From the IMG/VR virus record IMGVR_UViG_3300045988_067909: DNA of 64,000 bases. One strand, written 5' to 3'. Source of the DNA: a virus. The notes below the pieces were generated by a model. That model was not told where the DNA came from. It worked only from the letters and a program-made list of their open reading frames with translations, and made no database searches. Both the position numbers and the translations under genes were made by a program. Below, piece by piece: positions 13,775 to 48,312 of this stretch (the first letter of the stretch is position 1; each line of letters opens with the position of its first letter).

Positions 13775-13846
13775 CGTAAAACTTAGTTTTTTCAGTTATA
13801 TACTATAATGGTAATATCATGGTTATATTATTTAGTTTACATATAG
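13775..13846 (+). promoter_or_regulatory. copy of conserved promoter-like repeat (CGTAAAAC...TTCAGTTATATACTATAATGGTAATATCATGGTTATAT)
   Basis: Member of a repeat family of at least 8 copies containing TATAAT. Positioned 15-25 nt upstream of a strong RBS and ATG. Confidence 0.45.
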
Positions 13847-13858
13847 GAGGAATATATC

Positions 13859-14248: not shown

Positions 14249-14300
14249 AAGGCTAGAGGAATTTCCTCTAGCCTTAATCTATTTTATTTTTTTTTATTCA
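14249..14300. terminator. bidirectional terminator between convergent genes
   Basis: Hairpin aaggctagaggaatttcctctagcctt flanked by an A-run on one side and a T-run on the other. Convergent CDS ends at 14242 and 14294. Confidence 0.5.
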
Positions 14301-15013
14301 CGACGGGATATCTTCTTACCACTTAAAGTCAATGGTGTTACATTGCCAATATTGATTAAGTTAGTAGATAGATGTGCACCTAGCATATATACGTTAAGTA
14401 AGTTCTTACTCATAGGATCACTAGGGTCATCAGGGATATCATCTTGAGAGATATAACCCATAGTAGAGATAGTATTATACATAGCTTGTTTAGCTTCCAT
14501 GGAATCTGCACGTGCTCTGGATAACTCTTTAATAGTTGCATCCATGCCACTAACTACAAGAGATTCCATTTCTCTATCAGATGTAATACCATTCTTATCA
14601 TGAGAGATAAGCATACCTGTCTTATTATCACGCATAGCTATATTAGTAGAGATAGCGTTCTTTTTTGTCAAGAATTGTTTCATACGTTTTAGATGTAAGT
14701 ACCCAACTAATGCTTCATGAGATGTAGCACCATGACCATTCTCATCTGTATAGATATATGGCATTTCGACTTTCTCTAAGATAGGTACACCCATTACATC
14801 AGCAGCTTTCTCTACTTGGTCCATAGTTGGTTCAATCTCGAATACACGAGTGATAAATCTAAATGGATATTTACCAGATACAAACTTAGTAAACTCTTTA
14901 TCACTCATATCAGAGAATATCTTTTTATAATAGTCAGTAACTTTACCAGATGGATCCATAGCTAGCATTACATCAAATACTAGCTTTTCGGCTTTCTTTC
15001 TTTGTGGTGTCAT
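14294..15013 (-). CDS. hypothetical protein
   Basis: 239-aa ORF. RBS aggagg in ctaatctataggaggaactaaATG (reverse strand). Confidence 0.5.
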   Translation of the reverse strand: MTPQRKKAEKLVFDVMLAMDPSGKVTDYYKKIFSDMSDKEFTKFVSGKYPFRFITRVFEIEPTMDQVEKAADVMGVPILEKVEMPYIYTDENGHGATSHEALVGYLHLKRMKQFLTKKNAISTNIAMRDNKTGMLISHDKNGITSDREMESLVVSGMDATIKELSRARADSMEAKQAMYNTISTMGYISQDDIPDDPSDPMSKNLLNVYMLGAHLSTNLINIGNVTPLTLSGKKISRRE

Positions 15014-17929: not shown

Positions 17930-18439
17930 ATGGAAATTGATGGAATGCCAGAAATTAAATTGAGCAGTGTGTCTGCTAAAAAAGCTGTATCTCCATTACG
18001 TGAAGAACAAGAACCACAGTTAACTGTATTCTTAGGTGGTACCTGTAATGGCTCTGTATGGAGAAATGATTTACTTAGAATGCTAACTGACAAGGTAAAA
18101 GCATTTAACCCTGTAGTGTCAGTATGGGATGAACGTGCTAAGTTCGAAGAGAAGTATCATCGTGACCATGATGATGTAAGACTATATTGTATTACACCAG
18201 CCATGTCAGGAGTATACTCTATTGCTGAAGTAGTAGATGATAGTAATAAGAGACCTGAAAATACCATACTATGCGTATTGTATAGTGACTTTGGTGGTGA
18301 TTTTACTTATACTAATCATCAATTAGCTTCTATGAAAGCCTTAATGGATTTAGTAGAGTCTAATGGTGTAAAAGTATTCGATAGCCTATATGATGTAGCA
18401 GTCTACTTAAATAACAGAGCTGAACATATAGCTAAATAA
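17930..18439 (+). CDS. hypothetical protein, possibly nucleoside 2-deoxyribosyltransferase-like fold
   Basis: RBS aaaggaggataatttATG. N-terminal VFLGGTCNGSVWRNDLL resembles the glycine-rich N-terminal motif of Rossmann-like deoxyribosyltransferase/DUF proteins. Weak evidence. Confidence 0.3.
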   Translation: MEIDGMPEIKLSSVSAKKAVSPLREEQEPQLTVFLGGTCNGSVWRNDLLRMLTDKVKAFNPVVSVWDERAKFEEKYHRDHDDVRLYCITPAMSGVYSIAEVVDDSNKRPENTILCVLYSDFGGDFTYTNHQLASMKALMDLVESNGVKVFDSLYDVAVYLNNRAEHIAK

Positions 18440-18725: not shown

Positions 18726-19991
18726 ATGAAAGCAAAACTTATCGGTATTGGAGCTGCTGGTAATAAAGCAGCTATGCATGCTATTAACCAAGGTGTATTT
18801 GATCGTAAAGATGTTTTACTTTTGAATACAACTCAAAAAGATATGAAAGACGAATTCAACGATATTAATATCGTATTCGGTGATAACCGTGGTGGTTGCG
18901 GTAAAGAACGTGATATGGCTAAAGGATTAGCTATGGAAGCTTTACGTGCAGACCTATTCAAATTAGACTCTTTTCCAGATCCTCAAGATGAAGCTATTAT
19001 CATTGTATCTTCTTCCGAAGGTGGTACTGGTTGCGGTGCTTCTACTATTGTAGCTAAGTACTGTAAACAAGTATTGAAAATGAATGTACACATGTTCGTA
19101 TTCACTGGTTTCGAACAAGATGCTCGTGGTATCCAAAACACTGTAGAATACTTCCAAGAATTATCTGATGAATATACTGTACAAGCTATTAGTAATAAGA
19201 AATTCTTAGATGGTATCCGTAGCAAACAAGATGCTGAACGTGCGGCTAACCAAGAATTCACTCAACGTATGGCAGTTCTTCTTGGTCAAGACTTAGTAGA
19301 ATCTGATCAAAATATTGATGACACAGACTTATATAAATTGTCTACTACACCTGGTTTCATGACTATCGAAAAAGCTAAAGTTACTAGCATTAAGAATACA
19401 GAAGACTTGTATAAAGAACTTCGTAAAATGTTAGACTATAGCAAATCTTTGGAATTCAAGCCTACAGCTAAACGTATTGGTGTAATCTTTGGTCTAGTTC
19501 CTGCGGCTCAAAACATGGACTTGAATACTGATGTATTACGTGAACGTCTTGGTGAACCATATGAATTCTTCACTCATATTCAAGATGCTGAACCTGGTAA
19601 AGAGTTCATTGAATTCATTGCTTCTGGTATTAAAATGCCAATTGATGAAGTTAATAAAGCTTACCAAACTTACTTAGAACGCACTTCTAAAGTTGATAAA
19701 TCTAAAGACTCTTTCTTTGATGAAGCTTCTTCTATGACTATCAATAAAGAAGATGGTATGTTTAACTTTGATAAGACTGGTCCACAAAATATCTCCAAAG
19801 CAGATAAAGATGCATTCTTTGCTAGTTCCAAGCCTGTAGTTAAACCACGTGTAACTGTATCTGCTAAAGATGATTTCTTCAATCAAACTACAGAAAAGGT
19901 TACAGTATCTCCTACAGTTGAAGTTCCAGAAGAACCAGTTAAACCTAAACGTGTAATTATCACTAGCAATGGTATTACAAAAGACTATTAA
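18726..19991 (+). CDS. phuZ: tubulin/FtsZ-family GTPase, phage PhuZ/TubZ-like
   Basis: N-terminal GIGAAGNKAA (G1 GxGxxG box). Tubulin signature-like SSEGGTGCGAS (GGGTGSG). Overall size 421 aa with an extended C-terminus, as in phage tubulins. Confidence 0.8.
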   Translation: MKAKLIGIGAAGNKAAMHAINQGVFDRKDVLLLNTTQKDMKDEFNDINIVFGDNRGGCGKERDMAKGLAMEALRADLFKLDSFPDPQDEAIIIVSSSEGGTGCGASTIVAKYCKQVLKMNVHMFVFTGFEQDARGIQNTVEYFQELSDEYTVQAISNKKFLDGIRSKQDAERAANQEFTQRMAVLLGQDLVESDQNIDDTDLYKLSTTPGFMTIEKAKVTSIKNTEDLYKELRKMLDYSKSLEFKPTAKRIGVIFGLVPAAQNMDLNTDVLRERLGEPYEFFTHIQDAEPGKEFIEFIASGIKMPIDEVNKAYQTYLERTSKVDKSKDSFFDEASSMTINKEDGMFNFDKTGPQNISKADKDAFFASSKPVVKPRVTVSAKDDFFNQTTEKVTVSPTVEVPEEPVKPKRVIITSNGITKDY

Positions 19992-20942: not shown

Positions 20943-20944
20943 CA

Positions 20945-21300
20945 ACACAAAAAATAATACATGGGTAGAGAGGATGCCCTACCCATGTATATCTTTATCT
21001 ATACACCATATCTATGATATAGTCGCATGCGCCATAGTGGCACCATATGCTCTATTGGTGTATCTTTATCTGGTAAATGTTCACCAGACTCAGTACCAAC
21101 AGGTATAGATTCAGATGCTAGTCTTCTAGCTTCGAGCTCAGGAATCTGAGCGCAAAGCGAGAGGAGAAACTCTCTGCTCATAGGGGATTCACCTCCTTAT
21201 GACAAGTAGACATAAGTCTACAAGTGTATGGGTAAATTTAGATACGGCTATTGGTACTAGCTGTATCTACCATACACATTTATAGTATACAATCGTAAAA
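20945..21300 (-). repeat. copy 1 of a ~350-bp repeated cassette (promoter, structured leader, 60-aa ORF, terminator)
   Basis: High nucleotide identity to 21305-21715, and in inverted orientation to 47900-48290. Contains terminator catgggtag...ctacccatg and leader hairpins. Confidence 0.6.
20999..21181 (-). CDS. conserved small protein, cassette copy 1 (60 aa)
   Basis: MSREFLLSLCAQIPELEARRLASESIPVGTESGEHLPDKDTPIEHMVPLWRMRLYHRYGV. RBS aaggaggtgaatcccctATG. Paralogues at 21365-21547 and 48031-48228. Confidence 0.55.
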   Translation of the reverse strand: MSREFLLSLCAQIPELEARRLASESIPVGTESGEHLPDKDTPIEHMVPLWRMRLYHRYGV

Positions 21301-21304
21301 CAGT

Positions 21305-21715
21305 TTACATATAAAAAATAATACATGGGTAAGTGGGGATACACCTACCCATGATTATCTTTATCTATACCCCATATTTATGGTATAGTCGCATGCGCCA
21401 TAGTGGCACCATGTGAACTATTGGGGTATCTTTGTCTGGCATCCGTTCACCAGATACAGTACCTACTGGTATGGTTTCGGATGCCAGTCTTCTCGCTTCG
21501 AGCTCAGGGTTCTGAGCACAAAGAGAAAGAAGGACATCTCTTGTCATAGGGATTCACCTCCTTATGACTTATGGGTTATAGTCCCATAAGTGTATGGTTA
21601 TATTTAGATACAGCTACTACTAATAGCTGTATCTACCATACACGTTTATAGTATACAATCGTAAAACAGTTTACATACAGAAACTCCCATATAGGCAATG
21701 CCTATATGGGACTTC
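21305..21715 (-). repeat. copy 2 of the repeated cassette
   Basis: Tandem to copy 1. Same promoter-like TTGTATACTATAAA box, leader hairpins and terminator. One leader hairpin has a different sequence but preserved pairing. Confidence 0.6.
21365..21547 (-). CDS. conserved small protein, cassette copy 2 (60 aa)
   Basis: MTRDVLLSLCAQNPELEARRLASETIPVGTVSGERMPDKDTPIVHMVPLWRMRLYHKYGV. About 80% identical to copy 1. Confidence 0.55.
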   Translation of the reverse strand: MTRDVLLSLCAQNPELEARRLASETIPVGTVSGERMPDKDTPIVHMVPLWRMRLYHKYGV

Positions 21716-21785
21716 TTTTTAATTCTTACATACTAGGAAACAAGAAAGTATATAATACTTTGAAATTATGTAAGGAGGAAGCACT

Positions 21786-23012
21786 ATGAGTGAAGATTTA
21801 ATTTCGATAGTATCTGATAAGATGGGTACATCTAGTAGTACAAGCATTTATGATGTATTATACCCAACAGGGTTCTTTAATGTAGACTATTTGAATGGTT
21901 ATAAGATTAATGGTTATCATAAAGACGGTACTAAATTCTCTTATGATGCATTTGGTATTGTAGATGGTTCTTTTAACTTAGTTGTCGGACGTACTGGTTC
22001 TGGTAAAACAACAGCAGCTATCCAATGGGGTGCTAATATCATTCGTCGTTTTGAAAAGGCAAGAATGTTTATCGCATCTATCGAGGGTGGTATTACTATT
22101 AACCGTCTTGAAGCATTAACTGGTTGGTTTGGGGATGATTTATTTAAACGTGTAAGTATTCGTAATAGTGGTCTTAATGTAGAGAGCATCTATAAAGAAA
22201 TCTTATCTATCTATGATGCTAAGATGGCTAATAAAGAAGAATACTTATATGACACAGGTCATGTAGATTCTCGTGGATTGCCTATCATTAAGATGGTACC
22301 AACTGTATATGTGATTGACTCTGTAGCTAATATGGTTCCAGAACGTGTAGCTAACCGTGGTGAAATGGGTGGTCAAATGGATGCAACTGCTATTGCTAAA
22401 GCTAATACACAGTTCATCAAATTGACTATGCAATTACTTAAGACTGCTAATATTATTGTATTGGCAATCAACCACATCAATAAACGTGTAGAGACTGGTT
22501 TCATGCCAACTAAGAATGATATCCCATATCTTAAACAAGATGAAACATTACCTGGTGGTAAAGCTATTAACTATGATGCTAATAATATCTTCAAATTGGA
22601 TGATAAGAAGATTAAAGAAGAATCTTTTGGTTTCAATGGTAAAGAAATCGTAGTTCAAATGATTAAGTCTCGTACTAATAAAGCCAATATGACTACACCA
22701 TTATTGCTTAACTTTGATATTGGGTTTGACCCATACTTCTCTTTATTATTACTTCTTAAAGATACTGGTCGTGTTAAAGCCAAAGGGGCTTATATGCAAC
22801 TAGATGAGCATGCTGATATGAAGTTTACCAATAAGAAGTTTACTGAAATCCTATTTGATAATAAAGACTTCCAAAAAGTATTCTTTGAAGCGGCTAAAGA
22901 AGAATGTCGTAAGTTGTTAACTCCAACTAAGACTTTAACTGAGTCTGTAGATAATACATTGTCTAATGATGTAATGGCATTATTTAGAGCAATGGACCAA
23001 GTAGAAGAGTAA
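21786..23012 (+). CDS. RecA-superfamily recombinase, UvsX-like
   Basis: Walker A VVGRTGSGKTT. Walker B-like VYVIDSVANMV. Blocks AINH and MIKSRTNKANMTTPLLLNFDIGFDPYFSLLLLL parallel the T4 UvsX segments AVNH and VEKSRTVKEKSKFFIDVKFDGGIDPYSGLL. Confidence 0.7.
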   Translation: MSEDLISIVSDKMGTSSSTSIYDVLYPTGFFNVDYLNGYKINGYHKDGTKFSYDAFGIVDGSFNLVVGRTGSGKTTAAIQWGANIIRRFEKARMFIASIEGGITINRLEALTGWFGDDLFKRVSIRNSGLNVESIYKEILSIYDAKMANKEEYLYDTGHVDSRGLPIIKMVPTVYVIDSVANMVPERVANRGEMGGQMDATAIAKANTQFIKLTMQLLKTANIIVLAINHINKRVETGFMPTKNDIPYLKQDETLPGGKAINYDANNIFKLDDKKIKEESFGFNGKEIVVQMIKSRTNKANMTTPLLLNFDIGFDPYFSLLLLLKDTGRVKAKGAYMQLDEHADMKFTNKKFTEILFDNKDFQKVFFEAAKEECRKLLTPTKTLTESVDNTLSNDVMALFRAMDQVEE

Positions 23013-23032
23013 TTGTATATTATAGTTTTGAG

Positions 23033-23099: not shown

Positions 23100-25328
23100 T
23101 TGGCAACTAGCGTAAATATTGTAGACGAAATTAAGAAATATGAAAGGAGATTGAAATTCCCAGAAGAGGCATTAGGTAAAGAATTGGCCGAACCTATTCC
23201 AACAGCAGTATCTGGGTCACGTAAATTATTGTATTCAACACAGGCCGATCAAGTTATGTCTTTGAACACACCTGAAGTGCCGTTCTTACAGACAGGCTAT
23301 GAGAATGAGTTTGGACATAAGTCCACATCATTCAAACAATATCATGGTGATGATTTAGTTATACTAGATAAAGTCGATAAGTTTAACTGGATCCCTAATC
23401 ACCATTATTTTCTACTCACATACAATGCTAATAAGAATATCATTGATGCTGTAGAACGATGCTCATACTTACATATTACAGAAAGCTATGGGTATGACCA
23501 AAATACTAAGTACTTAGACTCCCTAGGTATTGGTAGTAAAATCCGTACAGGTGACATCTATCTCAAATCCAAAGGGTTTGATGAGTATAATAACCGTATG
23601 GATGGTGTAAATCTATTAGTTACTTATGCCGCTATCTCAGATACTACAGAAGATGCTATTGTATTATCTGAAAGCTGTGCTAAGAGATTAAGTTCTCCAT
23701 TGTATCATAAAGTCCAAATCATGGTCAATGAGAATGATATCATGCTCAATCTATATGGTAATGAAACCATTTATAAAGTTATGCCTGATATCGGAGAAGA
23801 AGTATCCAATAGTCTTCTATTGGCTACAAGACGTGAGAATAAACAAGAATCCTTGTTCTCTCAAGTATATTCCAGACTTATGGATATTAATATGAATGAC
23901 AATAAGATTACTGCTACAGGTACTGTAGTTGATGTCAATGTCATTACTAATAATCCAGATATGATGGAATCATCCAACTATACTACACAGCTTAGAACGT
24001 ATTGGAAAGAATCTATTCGATTCTCCCAAGAGCTTGTAGATAAAGTGGATATGTACAAAGATCGTTATCCTAATGCTAAGATTGGATACGAACTACAAGT
24101 ACTTTATTCTAGAGCAAAGAGCTTATTAGATGGAGAGAAGTTCTCTCTTGATGGTAAGAAAGCTTTCTCTAATATCTTCCTTGAAGTTGTGGTACGTGAA
24201 AACAATGAACTACATATCGGGGATAAGATTACTAACCGTTATGGTGGTAAAGGTGTTATTAGCCGTATACTTCCAGACGAAGAAATGTTTGAGACTATTG
24301 ATGGACGTAGAGTAGAAATGATCTATAACCAAGGTACTTCTACTAACCGTCTTAATCCAGCTCAGATATTTGAAACAGAAATAAATGCAGCATCTGCCAA
24401 ACTTCTAAGATACTTACCTATGGAAACACCATATGAGGTAAATCAATCATTAGAACGTATTGCTACATTTATGAGTATCTTCACTCTAATGCAAGCTAAT
24501 GCATTCAGGGAATATGTCTATGCCTTGAATGATGATAGCAAGTTAGATTTACTTAAGTCTATGAAGAACGATGGATGTATAATTCTATCAGTATCTCCAA
24601 TACAAGAAAACATTGACCTAGATAAACTAGTAGCTATGTATGAGTTATTCCCTGAATGTGAGATTGATTATGCTTATTGTCAATTACTTGATAGTAATGG
24701 TAATCCTCGTAAGGTAAGAACTCAACGTCCTTTACTAGTGGGTCATCAATACATTGTAAGACTTAAACAGTATGCAGAAGATAAGTTCTCTGTAACTTCA
24801 TTGTCTGCTACAAACTCTAGAAATGAAAATAGTCGTAATAAGAACCCAGGTGAGGGTGGACATAGATTTCCTAATACTCCAGTACGTTGGGGTGTAATGG
24901 AAACATCTGCTATGCAACACATTGGTTCTTGGTTCAATGCTATTATGCTTCTAGTATATAGTACGTCTCCACATGCAAGACGTAAAGCTAAGAATCTATT
25001 AACAGATTCACCATTCAATATCGACGTTAAAGTTGATAGTGAATCTAAATCTAGATCTGTAGAAGTACTTAATGTATATCTACGGACTATAGGCTTAAGG
25101 ATTAGATTTGATAAATATAAGAAAGTGATTAAGAGTATATTTGCTCTTCCATCTTCTATCCCACATATGTTTATCGAAGTTCCTGATGCTGATCGTAAAC
25201 CTACAATTGAAATGGTGGATGATAAGAAAGGGTTTAAGATTCCACAAATCATCTTCAAAGGTGATGACCCTAAACCAAATATGTTTATCAACCCACCTAA
25301 AGAGGAAGAAGAACCTCAGAAGGAGTAA
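23100..25328 (+). CDS. multisubunit RNA polymerase beta subunit, C-terminal part (split rpoB homologue)
   Basis: [24 protein letters not shown] matches RpoB [41 protein letters not shown]...[11 protein letters not shown] matches RpoB [20 protein letters not shown]...VLNPLG...[24 protein letters not shown] matches [13 protein letters not shown]. Confidence 0.8.
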   Translation: [742 protein letters not shown]

Positions 25329-25331
25329 GCT

Positions 25332-27614
25332 ATGTCTGATTTGAGACAAGTTTATATGGATATACTAGGGGGCAACTTTGAGTCTGCCCTTGATCCTCAA
25401 AATGTATATCTTATGAATCATATAGCAACTTGTGCACTTCAAGACGAGAATAATGTACGTCTTGATGATGTAGAGTTGGTATTACGTATAAGCAATGCAC
25501 TATACAATGGTACCGATATTGAAGTGCTACCACTTGAAGATGGGGTATATGATCTCTTGCTAGAAATGTATAAGAGATATAACCCTAACTTCCAAGTTGG
25601 TGGAGCCAATATTGGTATGAATAGTGTACGTAAAGACAAAGATGGTATTGCTGAATATCCAAATATGTTTATACCTGTCCCTATAGGGATTGAGAATACA
25701 TATGGTATGGATATCCTAGCATACGGTAACACATCTAAGTTTGCTACACCATTATCATGGAATAATGGCCAAGTATCTGATAGACAAAGAGACACAGCTC
25801 ATAAGTATCCAGAATTAGTTGGTACTCTGGACAAGTGTAAGTTTGTATTAGACCATCAAGCATATACTGCTGGTGTAGCAGAAGATCCTAATGTAAAGAT
25901 CTTCGAAAGAGATTTCATTGGATTGCATTTCCATAATGGAGTAAATAATCCTAATGATATTCTCAATATAGTTATGGAACTCAAGTATGATGGTATCTCT
26001 ATTGAAGCCGAAGTATCTAACCATGTAGTATCTGCTAGAACTCGTGGTGATTTGGATAATGATAGAGCTACTGATCTTACTAGTGTATTGTATGGGTATA
26101 GATTCCCTAATACTATTCCAGACAACGAAGTCTTTGGTATGAAGTTTGAAGCTATCATCACTAAGTATGATATGGAAAGACTTAAAGCAAAGACTGGTAA
26201 ATCTTATACCAATATGAGAACTGCGGTATCTGGTATTCTAGGTTTAGCTAATGCTAGAGAATACTTAGAATATATTACTTTGGTTCCATTAGGTACATCA
26301 TTACACTTCGATACTAGAGAAGAAGAGCTTATGTTTATGAATAGATACTTTGCAACTAAAGTATCAAATGCATATAAAGCTTTCTCTGGTAGATATGACC
26401 ATGTATTATACATGGTAGACAAGTTCGTTCAAGATGCTGATATGATGCGTCCATATATGACGTTTGCTTATGATGGTATTGTAGTATCTTACAATGATAA
26501 TTATCATAAGCAACTCTTAGGTCGTGTAAATCATGTCAATAAGTATAGCATGGCTATTAAGTTTAATGCTATGAAACGAGTAACTAGATTCCGTGGATAT
26601 TCATATACAGTTGGTTCTAATGGTGTAATCACTCCGATGATTATATTTGACCCAGTAGAATTCAATGGTACAGTCCACTATAAAGCTAGTGGTCACTCTT
26701 ATGAACGATATAAGAAACTCAGTCTTAGATATAATGATGAGATTGAAGTGGCTTATGTAAACGATGTAATGCCATATGTAAGTAAGCTATACAATACAAA
26801 CAATGATAAGAATGAGAAACTCTATCCTATAGAACCATTTATTGATCATTGTCCTGCATGTGGTAGTCAATTAGTAGAATCTTTCTCTGGTAAGACTATA
26901 TCTTGTGAGAATCCAACTTGTCCAGGTATCCATCAAGCTAAGATGGTTAATATGATGGTAAGATTGGATTTCAAGAACTTTGGTCAAGCTGCTATAGAGA
27001 AACTAGAAATCAAGTCTCTTAGAGATCTATTTGAAAATGTAGATGAGACTAGATTATTCAATGCTGGATTTAGAGAGCGTGGTATAGCTAAGTTCCTAGA
27101 CCAGCTTAATGAAATCAAATCCAGAGATAACCTAGACTTCGTTATTGTTGGGTCTTTAGGTTTCACTGATATTGGATTTAGTACATGGTCAAACATCTTC
27201 AATGTAATTCCATTAGATTGTCTTATCAAGCTATCTGATGATGAATTATCTGATAGATTATTGGCTATTCCAGGTATAGGGCAACGTACAGTAGATACTA
27301 TTCTCAAAGAACGTGTAATATTTGCTGATGACTTAGTCTATATCTATACAAAGATACCTAATTTGAAACATAGCATCAATGCTAAGCCAGCTAAACGTAT
27401 ATGCTTTACTGGTATTAGAGATGCTAATGTTGAAGCAGCTTTAATGGCTAATGGGGATATGCCTAGTGAATCCATAACTAAGTCTACAGATTATCTTGTA
27501 GTACCTTACAAGGATTACTCATCTTCAAAGACAGCTAAAGCTGATAAGTATGGTATTCCAATCGTAACTATAGATGAGCTTGTAGCTCAACTAGGGTTAA
27601 ATATAAAAGTTTAA
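25332..27614 (+). CDS. ligA: NAD-dependent DNA ligase (LigA-like)
   Basis: Adenylation KxDG motif VMELKYDGISIEAEV followed by RTRGD. SMAIKFNA matches LigA AIAYKFPA. Cys4 zinc finger CPACGSQLV...CENPTCPG. HhH motif AIPGIGQRTVDTILK. BRCT-sized C-terminus. Confidence 0.75.
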   Translation: MSDLRQVYMDILGGNFESALDPQNVYLMNHIATCALQDENNVRLDDVELVLRISNALYNGTDIEVLPLEDGVYDLLLEMYKRYNPNFQVGGANIGMNSVRKDKDGIAEYPNMFIPVPIGIENTYGMDILAYGNTSKFATPLSWNNGQVSDRQRDTAHKYPELVGTLDKCKFVLDHQAYTAGVAEDPNVKIFERDFIGLHFHNGVNNPNDILNIVMELKYDGISIEAEVSNHVVSARTRGDLDNDRATDLTSVLYGYRFPNTIPDNEVFGMKFEAIITKYDMERLKAKTGKSYTNMRTAVSGILGLANAREYLEYITLVPLGTSLHFDTREEELMFMNRYFATKVSNAYKAFSGRYDHVLYMVDKFVQDADMMRPYMTFAYDGIVVSYNDNYHKQLLGRVNHVNKYSMAIKFNAMKRVTRFRGYSYTVGSNGVITPMIIFDPVEFNGTVHYKASGHSYERYKKLSLRYNDEIEVAYVNDVMPYVSKLYNTNNDKNEKLYPIEPFIDHCPACGSQLVESFSGKTISCENPTCPGIHQAKMVNMMVRLDFKNFGQAAIEKLEIKSLRDLFENVDETRLFNAGFRERGIAKFLDQLNEIKSRDNLDFVIVGSLGFTDIGFSTWSNIFNVIPLDCLIKLSDDELSDRLLAIPGIGQRTVDTILKERVIFADDLVYIYTKIPNLKHSINAKPAKRICFTGIRDANVEAALMANGDMPSESITKSTDYLVVPYKDYSSSKTAKADKYGIPIVTIDELVAQLGLNIKV

Positions 27615-27701
27615 CCCTAGTGAAACAAATCTATAAGTATATATTATAAATGAGATAGTGGTTTGCTATCTCGTTTCTTTTGGTTATAGGAGGATATTAT
27701 T

Positions 27702-28322
27702 ATGATTAAGAACCTAACAGAAACAACTATTTTTCAAACATGGAACTCTCGTCTAGTTGATGAAGTAGGCTTTGATGTTCCATTAGCAAGTTTTAAAGAA
27801 CTATTCCGTCCAATCATCTTCTCTTTGGCTAACTTCTTATCCAAAGTAGGTGGTGCGGACATCACTACATCTGCAGTTACTATTAGTAATACAGATGGCG
27901 TGTTCTTGTGCGCATTGTTGGTTAACCGTACAGTGGACCAAGAAAACAAAACATCCTTTGATGTATCCTTCACTACTGATAAGGAATTAGTTGACAATAG
28001 TGAATTATGTCAATATACTATTGCAGCTTCTGAACGTGAGCTTCAAGAATTCGTAAACAAATTCATCTTGGAAGAAGTTAAAAACCGTTTCCAAACACCT
28101 GAGCTATTATATGATTTCTTACGTGTATTATTCAGTACTATCTTGAATTACACTAATAGCTTGACTCGTGATGAAATCACTGAAGAAGGTCTTGAAATCG
28201 ATATCGAAGATACTATTACTATTGCAGTATCTTTAGATGAAGAGGGTAATCGTGTAGTAGCTATTGAACCAGGTACTGCATTGAAAACCTACGTAAAAGA
28301 TGATAAATGTAACCAGCAATAA
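27702..28322 (+). CDS. hypothetical acidic protein
   Basis: RBS ttataggaggatattattATG. 206 aa. Followed by hairpin ctaggggtatttcccctag. Confidence 0.45.
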   Translation: MIKNLTETTIFQTWNSRLVDEVGFDVPLASFKELFRPIIFSLANFLSKVGGADITTSAVTISNTDGVFLCALLVNRTVDQENKTSFDVSFTTDKELVDNSELCQYTIAASERELQEFVNKFILEEVKNRFQTPELLYDFLRVLFSTILNYTNSLTRDEITEEGLEIDIEDTITIAVSLDEEGNRVVAIEPGTALKTYVKDDKCNQQ

Positions 28323-28401
28323 CAAATAAGATTATACAAATCCAGGGTCTAGGGGTATTTCCCCTAGGTCCTTGTATAATTTTTATTAGCGGGGTTAAAT
28401 C

Positions 28402-29067
28402 ATGAAGCGTGCAATATGTGAAGGGAAACTACTTAGTCTGTATGATATAAATACGGACTATAATGATTACTTTATGAATGATACATCATTCATGGGGTAT
28501 ATTGATGAGGGAACTGGTATTATTTATCCTAGCACAACTCAAACTTACATAAGTAAGAATCCAGGTAAAGCTGGATTCTATAAGCATGGTCCATTCTTAA
28601 AGTTTATCGAACCATCTGATGAAGAGAGAGATAACTTTACTTTTGATAAATTGGAACATGTGGATTGGGATAATACATCTAGTATTAGTGACGTAGTAGC
28701 TAAGTCTAAAGAGGCATTCTCTTTGGACAATAGATTACTTAGTAACGTCACACCAGACAATATCTTTGCACCACCAATTCATTCTGATGACTCTCCAGAA
28801 ATGGTTGGTATGAAAACAGCTATTGCAAAGAAGAAGATTGACTTAGACTTATATGGATATCGTTTTGGTGAGAACTTCAATAATGATAAACGTATATTTG
28901 ATAAGCCATCTATGACTTTAAATAAGTTAGTGACTATCTGTGATAAGACAGATATAGACGCTTATCTCATTCTCAAAGACAAGGATGGGGATATCCCTAA
29001 CCCTATGGGAGAAGAGATAGTAGTAAAACTAACTAATGGAACGGAAGAGGAGGGTAACGATGAATAA
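28402..29067 (+). CDS. hypothetical protein
   Basis: 221-aa ORF whose stop overlaps the next gene's start. Confidence 0.45.
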   Translation: MKRAICEGKLLSLYDINTDYNDYFMNDTSFMGYIDEGTGIIYPSTTQTYISKNPGKAGFYKHGPFLKFIEPSDEERDNFTFDKLEHVDWDNTSSISDVVAKSKEAFSLDNRLLSNVTPDNIFAPPIHSDDSPEMVGMKTAIAKKKIDLDLYGYRFGENFNNDKRIFDKPSMTLNKLVTICDKTDIDAYLILKDKDGDIPNPMGEEIVVKLTNGTEEEGNDE

Positions 29068-30814
29068 TAGTTGGCAAAGCAAGTTCATTGCCGATTATAA
29101 TGATAAGAATCGTCCTAAGTTTAATGACGTATTCTTCTCTAAATCCGATGATGCTATTATCGAAGACCTAAAAGCTATGCTTATATCTTGTCAACGTGAT
29201 AAGTATTTCACAGTCAAGATTCTAGGATTCGATACTATAGAAGACTATGATGAAGTAAACAGACTTCTCATAGAAAACAATGATAATATCACTGTACCAA
29301 TCAAAGATAGCTATCTTAAGATACTTAAGGTAACCTATTATATTGAGGTCAATGGATATAGTGATACATTTGATGTGTATATAGCAGTGCCTAGAGTATT
29401 CGAAGGTGCTTATATCATCTTAAATGGTAATACGTACTTCCCATCTTTCCAATTAGTAGATGGGAGTACTTACAATAATACATTAGCAAAATCATCTAAA
29501 GTACAAAAGATTACATTGAAGACTGTCTTTGGTGCTTTACGTATGATTCGTAATTTCTATGACTATCAGACCACTGATGGCACTGTACTTAACGGTACAG
29601 TATATTCTATCATGTCTAATGGTGCTTCTTATAAGGGTAAGAAGAATGCAGTAGATAGAAAAGTTCCAGCATTCAAATACTTATTTGCTAAGTATGGTTT
29701 ATACGAAGCATTAAGTCTATTTGGATTCGATAATACTATCTTCATTTCTAAAGAACCTTTTGAAGAAGAAGAGAATTACTATACGTTCAAATGTCAAGCC
29801 ACTACTAGCCGTATAGGTTATGTAAAAGTAGCTAAGATATTATTCGATAATGACCGTGTATATCAATCAGCAGTTATAACTATCTTAGATAATCTTCGTA
29901 GTTTGAAGACTGGATATACAGCAGAGTCATTATTCAATAAAGACTACTGGGTTATTTCTCTTGGTGCACATTTCGTTAAGAATAATATGGAATATGAGAA
30001 AGGCTTATCCGCTCTATATTCTCTAGAAGATCAATACGACATAGTCACCAAGAAGAATATCAGATTACCATATGAATATAAATCTAATATTTATATGATA
30101 CTAAGATGGATGATGGCAGAGTTCTCTAATATTCGACTTAAAGATAACACTGATGTTACCAATAAGCGTATTAGATGGTCTGAATGGATTGCGTCTCTAT
30201 ATGTAATGAAACTAAATACAGGTATGTATCGTTTAAATGATATAGCTAGACGTCTTAAATCCGATACTATAATCAAACGTTTTAGACAATGTATCGATAT
30301 CAAACCTATGTACTTAATATCTGAGTTACAAAAGAGTGGTATCAAAGGTTTCCGTAATATGGTTAATGAACGTGATGCTATATTACAATTAAAGTGGACT
30401 TTCAAAGGACCTACAGGTCCTGGTGAAACATCCAATAAGAATCTCGAGGGTAGACTTAAACGTATTTCTCCATCGCATTTAGGCATCTTGGACTTTAATA
30501 CCTCTTCACCAACTGAACCTGGTACTAGTGGTATTATGTGTCCTTTGAATCAAAGTGTATATGATGGATATACGTTTACTAGTGATGGTGAACCTAATAG
30601 CTGGGATGCATCTTTCAATGAACTTAAACAAAGTTATAGGGATGCTATTGGTGTTAAGTCCGCATTTGAATTAGCAGATGATATCGGAGCTGTTCTTGAG
30701 GGAGCAGATGACGGTAAGAATCGTGCTATCTATGAAATGTATCAAATGGGTAAATCCATAAGCCTAGCTAAACAGTCAAACTATCAACCTGGAGATCTTA
30801 TAGTCGAAGATTAA
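29060..30814 (+). CDS. multisubunit RNA polymerase beta subunit, N-terminal part (split rpoB homologue)
   Basis: Start ATG at 29060, translationally coupled to the previous gene. KWTFKGPTGPGETSNKNLEGRLKRISPSHLGILDFNTSSPTEPGTSGIMCPL parallels RpoB LSALGPGGL...[25 protein letters not shown]. Confidence 0.6.
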   Translation: MNNSWQSKFIADYNDKNRPKFNDVFFSKSDDAIIEDLKAMLISCQRDKYFTVKILGFDTIEDYDEVNRLLIENNDNITVPIKDSYLKILKVTYYIEVNGYSDTFDVYIAVPRVFEGAYIILNGNTYFPSFQLVDGSTYNNTLAKSSKVQKITLKTVFGALRMIRNFYDYQTTDGTVLNGTVYSIMSNGASYKGKKNAVDRKVPAFKYLFAKYGLYEALSLFGFDNTIFISKEPFEEEENYYTFKCQATTSRIGYVKVAKILFDNDRVYQSAVITILDNLRSLKTGYTAESLFNKDYWVISLGAHFVKNNMEYEKGLSALYSLEDQYDIVTKKNIRLPYEYKSNIYMILRWMMAEFSNIRLKDNTDVTNKRIRWSEWIASLYVMKLNTGMYRLNDIARRLKSDTIIKRFRQCIDIKPMYLISELQKSGIKGFRNMVNERDAILQLKWTFKGPTGPGETSNKNLEGRLKRISPSHLGILDFNTSSPTEPGTSGIMCPLNQSVYDGYTFTSDGEPNSWDASFNELKQSYRDAIGVKSAFELADDIGAVLEGADDGKNRAIYEMYQMGKSISLAKQSNYQPGDLIVED

Positions 30815-30829
30815 AAGGGAGTGTTTATT

Positions 30830-31066
30830 ATGGCGGTAAAAGATATTTACCATCGTGTGTTCATTATGTCTCGTCAACAAATGGAAGAGCTTAAAGAACG
30901 CAATAATCAACTAGGTTTAAAAACAGAATTCGGTAAAGTAATCGTTAATGGAGTTGAACGTGTATATTCTGATATCATTCTTGATATGGCAGATTGCCGT
31001 TACTCTGATGCGGTTAAAGTTATCGAAGGTGACATTCGTGCTATTAAGCACACTGAAGTAGTTTAA
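30830..31066 (+). CDS. hypothetical small protein
   Basis: RBS aaagggagtgtttattATG. About 78 aa. Confidence 0.35.
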   Translation: MAVKDIYHRVFIMSRQQMEELKERNNQLGLKTEFGKVIVNGVERVYSDIILDMADCRYSDAVKVIEGDIRAIKHTEVV

Positions 31067-31135
31067 ACTAAGTAAGTATATAGTATGGGTCTAATGACTC
31101 ATACTATATACATTATTTTTAAGGAGGAAACAAAA

Positions 31136-32224
31136 ATGAATATTCCAGCTACACTAAGCTTCTCTAAATTAGCAGAAGATCTTAAAAATGCTATCTTCAA
31201 AGATGAAGAAAGATATAGTCTTATGCCTAATTGTGATTACTATGGTGAAAACGCTAGAAATCTGGCTTCATGGATTGGCCGTATCTTTATGGTGCAAGAC
31301 AAAGACATTGATTATAATAAAATACATATTATAATCCATAGATACCCAACAGACAAGTTGATTGGTTTTGTATACTTAGATACTGAAGATGATAATATTA
31401 ATAAAGATGAATTCATCTCAACTATCCGTGTAGATATTGATGGTGAAAATGATTATATGTATAACGAAATTATGCTAATCAACACCAAATCTATATTGAA
31501 TGCATTACAAAATAAGAACTATGATGTATTTATTAGCCTATGCTATGAGCTTACTAAATACATCTATAGAAGTGCTACACCTGAGGCTAATCAGGATGCG
31601 GTAACTGCTATCACATTATACATTGATTTCATGTATAATCAATTATTCTCTGATATGGAAATGCCACATACATATGCTAATAAAGTATACCGTACATTAT
31701 TAGATACAAACTATTGCGACTATAAACCAGTAATTGACGCTATGAAGACATTACGTGGAACTGTTGCTTGTACATACTTCTTACCATTAGTGGGTGAGCT
31801 TCTTATGGAAGCAACTAAGCAACCATACTATACTGAAGAAATCGGTAAAGGTATGGTAGCACGTGTATTTGAAGATGAACGTTTTGAGTTGGTTGTACCA
31901 ATGATTGTCAAGAATTGTTTACAAAAGTTATCTGATGAAAACATATTGACTGCAGCATTAGCACATGCTCCATCTATACTAAAATATCTTGGTGATGAAT
32001 CTCATAAAGAAGAACGTGACACTCTAGTAGCATATATCAAAGAAAAAGTTGATAGCTATGTGAAAGACCATCCAGAATTAGCTGACTTCAAAGGATTCGA
32101 AAACAATGATAAAGCATCTTATAAACCAAATGGTAATTTCATTGTACCTGGTCAAAAGCTAAATGAACAAGCTATCTTAGATGCTAAAAAAGAATTCATG
32201 AAGAATCGTAATAAGAAGAACTAA
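31136..32224 (+). CDS. hypothetical protein
   Basis: RBS ttaaggaggaaacaaaaATG at 31136 (the ORF track starts earlier at a non-RBS codon). No metallophosphatase motifs, so not SbcD. Confidence 0.45.
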   Translation: MNIPATLSFSKLAEDLKNAIFKDEERYSLMPNCDYYGENARNLASWIGRIFMVQDKDIDYNKIHIIIHRYPTDKLIGFVYLDTEDDNINKDEFISTIRVDIDGENDYMYNEIMLINTKSILNALQNKNYDVFISLCYELTKYIYRSATPEANQDAVTAITLYIDFMYNQLFSDMEMPHTYANKVYRTLLDTNYCDYKPVIDAMKTLRGTVACTYFLPLVGELLMEATKQPYYTEEIGKGMVARVFEDERFELVVPMIVKNCLQKLSDENILTAALAHAPSILKYLGDESHKEERDTLVAYIKEKVDSYVKDHPELADFKGFENNDKASYKPNGNFIVPGQKLNEQAILDAKKEFMKNRNKKN

Positions 32225-35839: not shown

Positions 35840-36358
35840 ATGTTAGTATCAATGATAGTTGCACATGACTTAAATAACGGTATAGGTAAAGATGGTAAGC
35901 TATTATGGTATATACCTAAAGACCTAAAACATTTTAAGAAAACAACTCTAGGTTGTACTGTAGTCATGGGTAGAAAAACCTATGAATCTCTTCCTAACGC
36001 ATTACCACATAGAGAAAATTGGATTCTCACTAATGATAAATCATATGTACCTAAACAACGATTCAATGACAAGGTTAAAGTATTTCATTCTAAAGAAGAA
36101 GTACTAGCTGAAGCTGAACGTCTTAGAAAGGCTAATATATTTATCATTGGTGGTGGAGAAATCTATAAATTATTCTTAGATGATGCTACTGATATTATAG
36201 CTACAGTGGTTAATGAGAAGCTACCAGCTGACACTTTCTTTCCTAAACTAAAACGAGGTGAATGGGAGAAAGTAAAAGTTGTAAATGAATCTGAAGTTGT
36301 AGACCGTAGACATTATAGTTTTAAGTTTGTAACTATGAAACGAAAGGAGAGAAAATAA
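35840..36358 (+). CDS. folA: dihydrofolate reductase
   Basis: N-terminus MLVSMIVAHDLNNGIGKDGKLLWYIPKDLKHFKKTTLGCTVVMGRKTYESLP is the canonical DHFR signature. 172 aa. Confidence 0.85.
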   Translation: MLVSMIVAHDLNNGIGKDGKLLWYIPKDLKHFKKTTLGCTVVMGRKTYESLPNALPHRENWILTNDKSYVPKQRFNDKVKVFHSKEEVLAEAERLRKANIFIIGGGEIYKLFLDDATDIIATVVNEKLPADTFFPKLKRGEWEKVKVVNESEVVDRRHYSFKFVTMKRKERK

Positions 36359-38569: not shown

Positions 38570-38574
38570 ATAAT

Positions 38575-38650
38575 CGTAAAACTCTTTTTTTTTAGTTGTA
38601 TACTATAATGGTAATATCATGGTTATATATTTATTAGTTAATTAGAAAGG
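38575..38650 (+). promoter_or_regulatory. conserved promoter-like repeat copy
   Basis: cgtaaaactctttttttttagttgtatactataatggtaatatcatggttatatat, followed by RBS aaaggag and ATG. Confidence 0.45.
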
Positions 38651-39237: not shown

Positions 39238-39264
39238 ATGATACTGAGGGTATAATGATAATAT

Positions 39265-39335
39265 CGTAAAACTGTTTTTTTAGTTGTATAATATAATGGT
39301 AATATCATGGTTATATATTTAGTTAATTAGAAAGG
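39265..39335 (+). promoter_or_regulatory. conserved promoter-like repeat copy
   Basis: cgtaaaactgtttttttagttgtataatataatggtaatatcatggttatatat. Confidence 0.45.
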
Positions 39336-42760: not shown

Positions 42761-42784
42761 TTACTAAGGGTATATTTGTAGTTT

Positions 42785-43320: not shown

Positions 43321-43348
43321 TATGATACTGGTGGTATAGTACGTATAT

Positions 43349-48290: not shown

Positions 48291-48312
48291 ATTTGTTAGT
48301 GATTTAGTAAAT

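What the first reader, a model, noticed from the sequence alone, without database searches (positions are those of the whole stretch)
23100..30814. RNA polymerase beta subunit split into two genes in inverted order, separated by an NAD-dependent ligase
ORF 23100-25328 carries the C-terminal RpoB blocks ([18 protein letters not shown]-like [19 protein letters not shown]-like). ORF 29060-30814 carries the more N-terminal [21 protein letters not shown]-like block. The C-part is encoded upstream of the N-part, with ligA and two unknown genes in between.

Split, non-contiguous beta/beta' genes are the signature of the sigma-independent multisubunit RNAPs of jumbo phages (phiKZ-like, AR9/PBS1-like). 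No beta' fragment (NADFDGD) is in this window, so the rest of the enzyme must lie elsewhere in the genome.

Together with the PhuZ homologue, this places the element among nucleus-forming or AR9-like giant phages. It nevertheless encodes dUTPase, thymidylate synthase and DHFR, so it should have thymine DNA. That differs from the uracil-DNA AR9/PBS1 group.
Basis: partly seen in the sequence, partly recalled or inferred. Interest (0 to 1): 0.7.

Follow-up and report, generated by a model that had tools for sequence, protein, structure and literature searches.

The report
Split RNA polymerase beta, AR9-type phage
The two ORFs are the C- and N-terminal halves of the beta subunit of a giant phage's own non-virion RNA polymerase, in the same order and with the same intervening ligase gene as in Bacillus phage AR9, so this is an ordinary but distant, uncultivated member of a known kind.

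Summary
ORF 23100-25328 is the C-terminal half and ORF 29060-30814 the N-terminal half of an RNA polymerase beta subunit. [quoted passage not shown]

The "inverted order with a ligase in between" is not a peculiarity. The block UvsX -> betaC -> NAD-ligase -> betaN is shared with AR9, Staphylococcus phage PALS_2, Listeria phage LPJP1 and three uncultivated relatives.

The window is about a quarter of a ~260-kb jumbo phage common in metagenomes. It shares only ~30% protein identity with any cultured phage. No beta' fragment lies in the window. In a ~97-99% identical IMG/VR genome, the nvRNAP beta'C and vRNAP beta'N homologues lie ~53 and ~48 kb downstream of betaN.

dUTPase, DHFR and an intron-split thyA are real, so thymine DNA is likely, unlike the characterised dU-DNA relatives. 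The "PhuZ" is only a divergent tubulin/FtsZ-family protein.

Verdict: new member of a known kind. The open question is whether this AR9-type enzyme reads thymine promoters.

The parts
23100..25328 (+). nvRNAP beta subunit, C-terminal fragment (homologue of AR9 gp089; corresponds to E. coli beta ~668-1308)
   Evidence: Pfam Rpb2_6 1e-16; phrog_3295 3e-91; PDB 7S00_C 1e-68; 29.8% identity to AR9 gp089; conserved ED, GKGV and R-x-G-x-ME motifs
29060..30814 (+). nvRNAP beta subunit, N-terminal fragment (homologue of AR9 gp105; reaches E. coli beta ~558). The ATG at 29060 overlaps the stop of the upstream ORF.
   Evidence: phrog_2943 4e-26; PDB 7S00_c 6e-41; 27% identity to AR9 gp105; public gene calls give 584 aa; RBS GAGGAGG and ATGAATAA overlap; AR9 R363 (-10 base pocket) conserved
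25332..27614 (+). NAD-dependent DNA ligase (AR9 g095 homologue). It starts 4 nt after the betaC stop, with no terminator between, so it is probably co-transcribed with betaC.
   Evidence: Pfam DNA_ligase_aden, OB and ZBD; phrog_3869 2e-84; tblastn to AR9 77195-79003, E 6e-59; terminator-like hairpin only after it
27702..28322 (+). Clade-specific 206-aa ORF of unknown function, its own transcription unit
   Evidence: No Pfam, PHROG, PDB or AR9 hit; positional counterparts in L011-L013 align at 19-30% identity, only L011 significant by tblastn; flanked by terminator-like hairpins 27648-27676 and 28344-28372
28402..29067 (+). Clade-specific 221-aa ORF of unknown function, always immediately upstream of betaN and overlapping its start by 8 nt (translational coupling)
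   Evidence: Conserved in L011, L012 and L013 directly before betaN, 33-38% identity with 33 invariant columns; no PDB, PHROG, Pfam or AR9 relative; AF2 model unusable, pLDDT 36
30821..31066 (+). 81-aa ORF, last gene of the betaN transcription unit, followed by a terminator-like hairpin at 31076-31111
   Evidence: 57% identical counterpart after betaN in L011; hairpin
21786..23012 (+). UvsX/RecA-like recombinase (AR9 g086 homologue), left anchor of the conserved block
   Evidence: phrog_97 2e-40; tblastn to AR9 g086 3e-48; homologues precede betaC in PALS_2 and LPJP1
23013..23024 (+). Promoter-like motif TTGTATATTATA, 76 nt upstream of the betaC start; probable early (vRNAP) promoter
   Evidence: TTRTATANTATA: 15 copies against 1.43 expected, all intergenic and co-oriented with the next gene; resembles the AR9 early-promoter core TATATTAT
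14294..15013 (-). Virion-RNAP beta C-terminal fragment homologue (RNAP domain of AR9 g078, without the HD domain); belongs to the second RNAP set
   Evidence: phrog_3233 'RNA polymerase beta subunit' 1.3e-36, full length; tblastn to AR9 g078, 63316-63717, E 7e-18; 64% identical in L011
27624..27635 (+). AACAAATCTATA: match to the AR9 late-promoter consensus AACA-N6-TA, upstream of the 206-aa ORF
   Evidence: consensus from PMC7598289

Best explanation
The two ORFs encode the two halves of the beta subunit of the phage's non-virion multisubunit RNA polymerase (nvRNAP), the AR9 gp089/gp105 type.

Inferred from AR9 biochemistry and structure: the halves are made as separate polypeptides. They assemble with two beta' fragments, and presumably with a gp226-like sigma-like subunit, into an enzyme that needs no host RNAP, alpha or omega. 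That enzyme transcribes late and middle phage genes.

Shown here:
- Both ORFs are homologous to the AR9 nvRNAP beta chains.
- The split site is the same as in AR9.
- The beta active-site motifs are conserved.
- A beta'C partner and a separate virion-RNAP set are present in a 97-99% identical genome.

The gene layout is inherited synteny rather than a functional rearrangement. betaC is co-transcribed with ligA. betaN forms an operon with a clade-specific 221-aa ORF upstream (translationally coupled) and an 81-aa ORF downstream.

Inferred: betaC is an early gene read by the injected virion RNAP from a TTGTATATTATA-type promoter. The assembled nvRNAP then starts at AACA-N6-TA promoters found in front of portal, sheath, protease, DNA polymerase and other operons. 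The betaN arginine equivalent to AR9 R363 would help form the -10 base pocket.
For: Homology and split point:
-.

nvRNAP rather than vRNAP:
- 244 against 38 bits.
- A vRNAP betaC homologue lies separately in the window.
- A vRNAP beta'N homologue with GGDYDGD was found in the near-identical IMG/VR genome.

Partner subunit:
- An nvRNAP beta'C homologue (AR9 g154, E 1e-42) lies next to g152, g153 and g156 homologues in IMGVR_UViG_3300007186_000004, a 97-99% identical genome.

Genes are functional, not decaying:
- Full-length 96-100% identical copies on 14 IMG/VR contigs, plus two truncated at contig ends.
- More than 635 related clusters at 39-52% identity.

Synteny:
- AR9, PALS_2, LPJP1, and three clade relatives.

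Operon structure:
-.

Promoter motifs:
- TTRTATANTATA occurs 15 times against 1.43 expected.
- AAACA-N6-TA has 12 intergenic hits against 2.7 expected. Nine are in sense orientation 29-85 nt upstream of genes that follow an intergenic gap.
- The AR9 consensus and the role of gp105 R363 come from PMC7598289 and PMC9209446. R363 is conserved here.
Against: - The nvRNAP beta'N (catalytic DxDGD) and the gp226-like subunit were not located. Only ~110 kb of the ~260-kb genome could be read.
- None of 120 IMG/VR loci matching the AR9-type NRNP-36aa-D[FY]DGD signature belongs to this clade.
- Identity to AR9 is only 27-30%, so functional details are extrapolated.
- The AACA-N6-TA motif carries little information and intergenic DNA is AT-rich, so the enrichment may be overstated.
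- Expression timing and non-virion status are not measured.
- AR9 gp105 K375 has no clear counterpart.
Confidence: 0.88

Rival explanations
1. The two ORFs belong to the virion-packaged RNAP (vRNAP) that transcribes early genes, not to the non-virion enzyme.
For: Jumbo phages of this type carry two RNAP sets, and sequence alone cannot show packaging. A vRNAP piece lies only 8 kb away in the window.
Against: betaC scores 244 bits against AR9 nvRNAP gp089 but 38 bits against vRNAP gp189. The best solved relatives of both ORFs are the nvRNAP chains of 7S00. The vRNAP betaC homologue is a different ORF, 14294-15013(-). The split site is the nvRNAP one, and the review states that vRNAP and nvRNAP beta split at different sites (PMC7598289).
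Confidence: 0.05
2. The ORFs are decaying remnants of a once contiguous rpoB-like gene, and a full-length beta is encoded elsewhere.
For: About 150 kb of the genome was not examined. betaN has no Pfam hit.
Against: Both ORFs are intact and 96-100% identical in 14 independent IMG/VR assemblies. They are conserved at 39-52% identity in more than 600 clusters. The catalytic-site motifs are invariant. The same two-fragment arrangement forms the active AR9 enzyme (PDB 7S00; PMC9209446).
Confidence: 0.02
3. The element is a phiKZ-like, nucleus-forming (chimallin) phage, and the enzyme is a phiKZ-type nvRNAP.
For: betaC hits phiKZ gp71-73 (7OGP_C, E 6e-15). A tubulin-family gene is present and is conserved in the closest relative examined, L011.
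Against: AR9-type relatives score far better (1e-68 against 6e-15). About 100 kb is collinear with AR9. betaN finds only AR9-like phages (21 records, no Pseudomonas phage). The tubulin is not PhuZ-like. No chimallin Pfam hit among the window ORFs scanned with Pfam, most of those of 115 aa or more.
Confidence: 0.05

Closest known systems
Bacillus phage AR9/PBS1 non-virion RNAP beta subunits gp089 (betaC) and gp105 (betaN), PDB 7S00/7S01/7UM0/7UM1
   Same: Both fragments are homologous end to end, with the same split site. Gene order and strand are the same: UvsX g086 -> betaC g089 -> NAD ligase g095 -> betaN g105. The beta' genes lie far away. A second, virion RNAP set exists. There is an early-promoter-like TATATTAT core and a late-promoter-like AACA-N6-TA motif. 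R363 of the -10 base pocket is conserved.
   Different: Identity is only 27-30%. The block is compact (3.7 kb between the halves against 8.1 kb). The ORFs between ligase and betaN are unrelated: AR9 has Ku, HU and Ugi there, while this phage has two clade-specific ORFs, one translationally coupled to betaN. AR9 has dU-DNA and encodes Ugi, dCMP/dCTP deaminase and dTMPase. This phage encodes dUTPase, ThyA and DHFR. The vRNAP betaC homologue here lacks the HD domain fused to it in AR9.
Staphylococcus jumbo phages (PALS_2, S6, SA1) and Listeria phage LPJP1 nvRNAP genes
   Same: The same UvsX -> betaC -> ligase -> betaN order on one strand, with similar identity (23-30%).
   Different: In those phages the nvRNAP beta'N gene follows betaN directly. 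Here that position holds an unrelated 379-aa ORF (hhalign probability 0.1).
phiKZ non-virion RNAP beta fragments gp71-73 (betaC) and gp123 (betaN), PDB 7OGP
   Same: A split beta made as two polypeptides, a five-subunit enzyme with a sigma-like fifth subunit, and thymine DNA.
   Different: A much more distant sequence relative (E 6e-15, against 1e-68 for AR9). betaN gives no detectable hit to phiKZ-like phages. The phiKZ late promoter (TATG at the start site) is different. phiKZ forms a chimallin nucleus.
Bacterial RpoB (E. coli beta)
   Same: Conserved blocks: NRRIRS / HPTHYGR in betaN; [18 protein letters not shown] and QRFGEME in betaC.
   Different: RpoB is a single 1342-aa polypeptide that assembles on an alpha dimer and uses host sigma. 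Here there are two polypeptides and no alpha or omega.

Membership tests
AR9-type jumbo-phage non-virion RNAP, beta subunit (gp089 + gp105) | Both fragments homologous over their full length to AR9 gp089 and gp105 | tested here: met
   7S00_C E 1e-68 (24-668 against 18-646 of 665); 7S00_c E 6e-41 (17-521 against 5-482 of 496); tblastn
AR9-type jumbo-phage non-virion RNAP, beta subunit (gp089 + gp105) | Split at the nvRNAP-specific site (between E. coli beta ~560 and ~668), giving two separate genes | tested here: met
   Profile-to-E. coli mapping; alignments start and end at both protein termini
AR9-type jumbo-phage non-virion RNAP, beta subunit (gp089 + gp105) | Closer to the nvRNAP than to the vRNAP paralogue | tested here: met
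   244 bits to gp089 against 38 bits to gp189
AR9-type jumbo-phage non-virion RNAP, beta subunit (gp089 + gp105) | Conserved beta active-site and hybrid-binding motifs (ED; R-x-G-x-K-G-V; R-x-G-x-ME) | tested here: met
   Invariant E184, D185, R380-Y-G, K384-G-V, T593-P, G598 and M600-E in the clade + AR9 alignment
AR9-type jumbo-phage non-virion RNAP, beta subunit (gp089 + gp105) | Partner nvRNAP beta' fragments in the same genome | tested here: inconclusive
   A beta'C homologue (AR9 g154, E 1e-42) was found ~53 kb from betaN in a 97-99% identical genome. beta'N was not located; about 150 kb was not readable.
AR9-type jumbo-phage non-virion RNAP, beta subunit (gp089 + gp105) | gp226-like sigma-like promoter-specificity subunit | not testable with these tools
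   No hit in the ~110 kb available; the rest of the genome could not be fetched
AR9-type jumbo-phage non-virion RNAP, beta subunit (gp089 + gp105) | Late promoters with template-strand 3'-UUGU-N6-AU (AACA-N6-TA on the coding strand) | tested here: inconclusive
   The motif is enriched in intergenic DNA (23 against 7.4; the stricter form 12 against 2.7) and sits 28-92 nt upstream of portal, sheath, protease, DNA pol and other genes. Its information content is low and no transcript ends are available.
AR9-type jumbo-phage non-virion RNAP, beta subunit (gp089 + gp105) | Uracil (dU) DNA template required for promoter recognition | tested here: not met
   DNA chemistry cannot be read from sequence. 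However, the phage encodes dUTPase (3e-15), DHFR (3e-49) and an intron-containing but complete ThyA (2.5e-54). These are incompatible with the PBS1-type dU pathway (PMC12697855). This lowers 'is a dU-dependent AR9 enzyme', not 'works like AR9 nvRNAP'.
AR9-type jumbo-phage non-virion RNAP, beta subunit (gp089 + gp105) | Absent from virions | not testable with these tools
   Needs virion proteomics
Chimalliviridae / phiKZ-like nucleus-forming phages | Chimallin shell protein and PhuZ tubulin | tested here: not met
   No Chimallin Pfam hit among the window ORFs scanned. The tubulin-family ORF has no PhuZ match in the PDB and no hit in 50,697 phage genomes. The rest of the genome was not examined.

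The most novel reading that the evidence does not exclude
This widespread, uncultivated clade would carry a natural thymine-reading version of the AR9-type template-strand promoter recognition system. It would have the same AACA-N6-TA late promoters and the same betaN arginine in the -10 pocket. Its gp226-like subunit would have a small residue in place of AR9 V206, the substitution that was engineered (V206G) to make AR9 nvRNAP accept T. In addition, the clade-specific 221-aa protein translationally coupled to betaN could be an extra nvRNAP-associated subunit with no counterpart in AR9 or phiKZ.
Probability: 0.3. Interest if true: 0.6.

Novelty: new member of a known kind. Interest (0 to 1): 0.33.

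Why it matters
The finding extends the AR9/PBS1-type two-RNAP transcription system. That system was known only from a handful of cultured dU-DNA phages of Bacillus, Staphylococcus, Listeria and Yersinia. Here it appears in a very large and prevalent clade of uncultivated ~235-280-kb phages: more than 635 betaC clusters, and one window protein indexed in 1336 blocks of the assembly collection.

The UvsX-betaC-ligase-betaN block is shown to be an old syntenic core.

The useful open question concerns DNA chemistry. The characterised relatives need uracil in the template strand for late-promoter recognition, whereas this phage carries a complete dTMP-synthesis set. It is therefore a natural test case for how that recognition pocket adapts to thymine.

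Tried and rejected
- Megablast of the region against 50,697 phage genomes gave no match.

- Search for the nvRNAP beta'N:
  - A profile of LPJP1, AR9 and PALS_2 beta'N found 141 proteins. None was identifiable as this clade.
  - The two low-identity hits checked were a distant AR9-like lineage (P0238, on L019; terminase 32% identical) and a chimallin phage (P0240, on L020).
  - The search for related loci with that profile found only 2 loci.
None shares more than 39% identity with genes of this phage.
  - One abundant 529-aa beta'N species from HMP-type samples sits on 16 contigs, none of them contigs of this phage.

- Walking with the search for related loci did work. It gave the vRNAP beta'N and nvRNAP beta'C.

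- The 379-aa ORF after betaN was tested as a degenerate beta'N, because Staphylococcus and Listeria phages have beta'N at that position. It was rejected (hhalign probability 0.1).

- The two unknown ORFs:
  - Profile searches against the PDB found nothing.
  - HMM searches against all AR9 ORFs found nothing.
  - The AF2 model of the 221-aa ORF had pLDDT 36 and was not used.

- gp226: ORFs next to the g231-g233 homologues were compared with AR9 g226 and g227. No similarity was found; one of them looks like a radical-SAM protein.

- Sigma-70-type promoters are not enriched (59 against 62.5 expected).

- The plain octamer TATATTAT is not enriched (20 against 22.6). Only the longer TTRTATANTATA is.

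- The first whole-window Rfam pass missed the thyA intron. A local pass found it.

Full report
**1. What is there**

The region carries a run of same-strand ORFs:
- 21786-23012 (408 aa)
- 23100-25328 (742 aa)
- 25332-27614 (760 aa)
- 27702-28322 (206 aa)
- 28402-29067 (221 aa)
- 29036/29060-30814 (592/584 aa)
- 30821-31066 (81 aa)
- 31085-32224 (379 aa)

The 742-aa ORF matches Pfam RNA_pol_Rpb2_6 (E 1e-16) and phrog_3295 'RNA polymerase beta subunit' over its full length (E 3e-91). The 592-aa ORF has no Pfam hit but matches phrog_2943 (E 4e-26).

- 7S00 chain C, E 1e-68, covering residues 24-668 of the 742-aa ORF.
- 7S00 chain c, E 6e-41, covering residues 17-521 of the 592-aa ORF.

Bacterial beta subunits follow at about 1e-15 to 1e-10, and only for the C-terminal ORF.

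Profiles of each ORF with its relatives map onto E. coli beta as follows:
- The N-fragment covers residues 443-558, with the NRRIRS and HPTHYGR blocks.
- The C-fragment covers 668-835 and 1049-1308, with the [18 protein letters not shown] and QRFGEME blocks.

Most of their residues are invariant in an alignment of four clade members and AR9. The ligase is confirmed.

**2. Which RNAP**

A local tblastn of all window ORFs against the complete AR9 genome (assembled) gave these results:
- betaC scores 244 bits to gp089, annotated non-virion RNAP betaC. It scores only 38 bits to gp189, the virion RNAP beta.
- betaN scores 155 bits to gp105, the non-virion betaN.

So this is the nvRNAP set.

The same comparison, together with PHROGs, showed that ORF 14294-15013(-) is a homologue of the RNAP domain of AR9 g078. 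That gene is the virion-RNAP betaC, which in Bacillus phages is fused to an HD domain (PMC7598289). The matches are phrog_3233 at E 1e-36 and tblastn at E 7e-18. A piece of the second RNAP is therefore already in the window.

**3. The 'inverted order with a ligase' is conserved synteny**

The same order is found in every relative examined:
- AR9: g086 UvsX, g089 betaC, g095 NAD-ligase, g105 betaN, all on one strand.
- Staphylococcus phage PALS_2: 066 (UvsX-like), 067 betaC, 075 ligase, 088 betaN.
- Listeria phage LPJP1: 183, 182, ligA, 175.
- Three uncultivated relatives with 39-49% identical betaC carry UvsX, betaC, ligase, a ~200-aa ORF, a ~210-220-aa ORF, then betaN. SbcC follows in the two whose loci extend that far.
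- phiKZ: the betaC gene (gp71-73) also has the lower gene number than betaN (gp123) (PMC8287921).

Beyond the block, about 100 kb of this genome is collinear with AR9 in large segments:
- g002, g007, g016, GyrB, GyrA, g051/52, g078, UvsX, betaC, ligase, betaN.
- Then an inverted segment: SbcC, DNA pol exo part, portal, sheath, terminase.
- Then g233/g232/g231, vRNAP beta'N g145, DNA pol g152, g153, nvRNAP beta'C g154, helicase g156.

The arrangement is inherited, not an oddity of this element.

**4. Whose genome**

No cultured phage is close. Megablast finds nothing. The best protein identities are ~30% to Staphylococcus SA1/S6/PALS_2 and Bacillus AR9/PBS1.

The identical betaC protein lies on a 260,470-bp ENA contig and 17 other contigs. 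It also lies on IMG/VR contigs of 259-267 kb. One window protein is indexed in 1336 blocks of the assembly collection. The betaC family has more than 635 clusters at 39-52% identity, many on 200-280-kb contigs.

By their numbering, many of the IMG/VR samples look like Human Microbiome Project assemblies. That is my own knowledge and was not tested. Human oral metagenomes are reported to be rich in unclassified jumbo phages (PMC9160773, PMC7782811).

GC content is ~34% and genes have strong AGGAGG ribosome-binding sites. The host is unknown.

**5. The rest of the enzyme**

No beta' fragment is in the window:
- No family hit among the ORFs scanned.
- No tblastn hit with AR9, LPJP1 or PALS_2 beta'N.
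- No DxDGD or NRNP peptide in six frames.

In Staphylococcus and Listeria phages the nvRNAP beta'N gene follows betaN. Here that position holds an unrelated 379-aa ORF (hhalign probability 0.1).

I extended the sequence stepwise from the window's downstream end:
- The first 10 kb came from the ENA contig that carries the window (L015; its overlap with the window is identical).
- The next ~20 kb came from IMGVR_UViG_3300007186_000004 via the search for related loci. Its betaC is 99% identical, and its overlap with L015 is 97% identical in DNA.

This extension found:
- A vRNAP beta'N homologue (AR9 g145, E 2e-55, with GGDYDGD), ~48 kb downstream of betaN.
- An nvRNAP beta'C homologue (AR9 g154, E 1e-42), ~53 kb downstream of betaN.

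The nvRNAP beta'N and a gp226-like subunit were not found. About 150 kb of the genome could not be reached.

**6. Local organisation and likely expression**

- betaC's stop and ligA's start are 4 nt apart, with no hairpin between.
- Terminator-like hairpins are enriched, 16 against 4.2 expected. They follow ligA, the 206-aa ORF and the 81-aa ORF.
- betaN's ATG (29060) overlaps the stop of the 221-aa ORF (ATGAATAA) and is preceded by GAGGAGG. This is classic translational coupling.
- That 221-aa family always sits directly before betaN in the clade. It has no detectable relative in AR9, the PDB, Pfam or PHROGs. An AF2 model was unusable.

A 12-nt motif, TTRTATANTATA, occurs 15 times against 1.4 expected. 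It is always intergenic and co-oriented with the next gene. One copy lies 76 nt upstream of betaC. It resembles the AR9 early (vRNAP) promoter core, extracted from the annotated AR9 promoters. Sigma-70-type promoters are not enriched. I infer that betaC-ligA is an early unit read by the injected vRNAP, as in AR9. This is inference only.

**7. Likely promoter specificity of the assembled enzyme**

The AR9 nvRNAP recognises template-strand 3'-UUGU-N6-AU, which reads AACA-N6-TA on the coding strand. The -10 U is buried between gp226 and betaN gp105, stacking on R363. Thymine is excluded by gp226 V206, and the V206G mutant accepts T (PMC7598289, PMC9209446).

In a 93-kb composite of this genome:
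- AACA-N6-T[AG] is three-fold enriched in intergenic DNA (23 against 7.4).
- AAACA-N6-TA is 4.5-fold enriched (12 against 2.7).
- Nine sense-oriented copies of the stricter form lie 29-85 nt upstream of genes that follow an intergenic gap. These include portal, prohead protease, DNA polymerase, UvsX, GyrA and the 206-aa ORF.
- The looser form also precedes the sheath gene.

The arginine equivalent to gp105 R363 is conserved in the window's betaN and its relatives. This is suggestive, not proof. The motif is short and intergenic DNA is AT-rich.

**8. DNA chemistry**

dUTPase (8473-8916), DHFR (35840-36358) and ThyA are confirmed.

thyA is on the minus strand in two exons, interrupted by a group I intron (RF00028, 44255-44501, 52.4 bits, E 4e-12). 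The spliced product is a complete ThyA, with the PCA active-site block in exon 1 and the GLGIPFN...HIY block in exon 2.

A phage dUTPase plus ThyA plus DHFR is the opposite of the PBS1-type pathway, which uses a dUTPase inhibitor, dCTP deaminase and dTMP phosphatase (PMC12697855). Thymine DNA is therefore likely. If so, an AR9-type promoter pocket must accept T here. That is the one interesting open point, and it is directly testable at the V206-equivalent residue.

**9. The 'PhuZ'**

ORF 18726-19991 is a tubulin/FtsZ-family GTPase (Pfam E 6e-10). A counterpart sits at the same position in the closest relative examined.

It has no tblastn hit in any of 50,697 phage genomes. Its solved relatives are FtsZ (2e-7) and TubZ (2e-4), not PhuZ. 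No chimallin was seen. Placement among nucleus-forming phages is unsupported.

**10. Verdict**

The feature is a distant new member of the known AR9-type nvRNAP family in its ancestral gene arrangement, so interest in the feature as stated is low to moderate.

What is mildly new:
- The size and prevalence of the uncultivated clade.
- Its thymine-type nucleotide metabolism.
- The clade-specific ORF coupled to betaN.

Noticed in passing
window 14294-15013 (-): A 239-aa homologue of the virion-RNAP beta C-terminal fragment (RNAP domain of AR9 g078; phrog_3233 E 1e-36). It lacks the HD domain that is fused to it in Bacillus jumbo phages. This is evidence for the second RNAP set inside the window.
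   Followed up: partly
window 43893-44980 (-), intron 44255-44501: Thymidylate synthase is split by a group I intron (RF00028, 52.4 bits, E 4e-12) at the LLQRS|GDTGLGIPFN junction. The spliced ORF is complete. The whole-window Rfam pass missed the intron.
   Followed up: yes
window 18726-19991 (+): A tubulin/FtsZ-family GTPase, with a counterpart in the closest relative examined, L011. It has no match in 50,697 phage genomes and is closer to FtsZ and TubZ than to PhuZ. The cultured AR9-like phages searched have no detectable homologue.
   Followed up: partly
window 20943-21785: A tandem duplication of a 366-bp unit (84-85% identity). Each copy carries a 60-aa minus-strand gene with its own RBS and a TTGTATACTATA promoter-like motif. 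Function unknown.
   Followed up: partly
window ~13770-13850, 38570-38640, 39260-39330, 42780-42850, 43345-43420, 45055-45130, 48300-48345, 59420-59470: A ~70-bp conserved intergenic module (TCGTAAAAC...TTGTATACTATAATGGTAATATCATGGTTATAT) precedes small genes of unknown function. Its core, TTRTATANTATA, occurs 15 times against 1.4 expected. Probably the early (vRNAP) promoter plus leader.
   Followed up: partly
window 53100-53115, 58580-58595 (-), 59375-59390 (-), 21735-21750, 27624-27635, 3155-3170 and others; also L015, L225, L259: An AACA-N6-TA motif (the AR9 late-promoter consensus) is enriched in intergenic DNA upstream of portal, sheath, virion protein, protease, DNA polymerase, UvsX and GyrA.
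   Followed up: partly
window 31085-32224 (+): A 379-aa ORF of unknown function occupies the position where Staphylococcus and Listeria relatives encode the nvRNAP beta'N. It is poorly conserved (23-24% identity in relatives) and is not beta'-like.
   Followed up: yes
L014 17976-19318 (98% identical strain; corresponds to window 8473-8916): In a closely related strain the dUTPase gene is called as two pieces flanking an HNH_3 endonuclease ORF. This suggests a mobile intron or intein insertion that is absent from the window's copy.
   Followed up: no
window 61065-63842 (-): A 925-aa protein with BspA-type leucine-rich repeats (LRR_5, E 8e-8) lies next to the tail and structural genes. It may be a receptor-binding or host-interaction protein.
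   Followed up: no
window 17930-18439 (+): A nucleoside 2-deoxyribosyltransferase-like protein (PF15891, E 1e-7) lies near the dNTP-metabolism genes.
   Followed up: no
L225 5148-6212 (-) (near-identical IMG/VR genome, ~78 kb in window-extended coordinates): A 354-aa ORF with a CxxxCxxC motif (radical-SAM-like) sits between the g231-like gene and the vRNAP beta'N gene.
   Followed up: no
L019 10001-11763: In a different, distant AR9-like lineage the nvRNAP beta'N is interrupted right after the NRNPS block by ~280 nt. The DYDGD-containing end is a separate 90-aa ORF. This insertion site differs from that of the AR9 intron.
   Followed up: no
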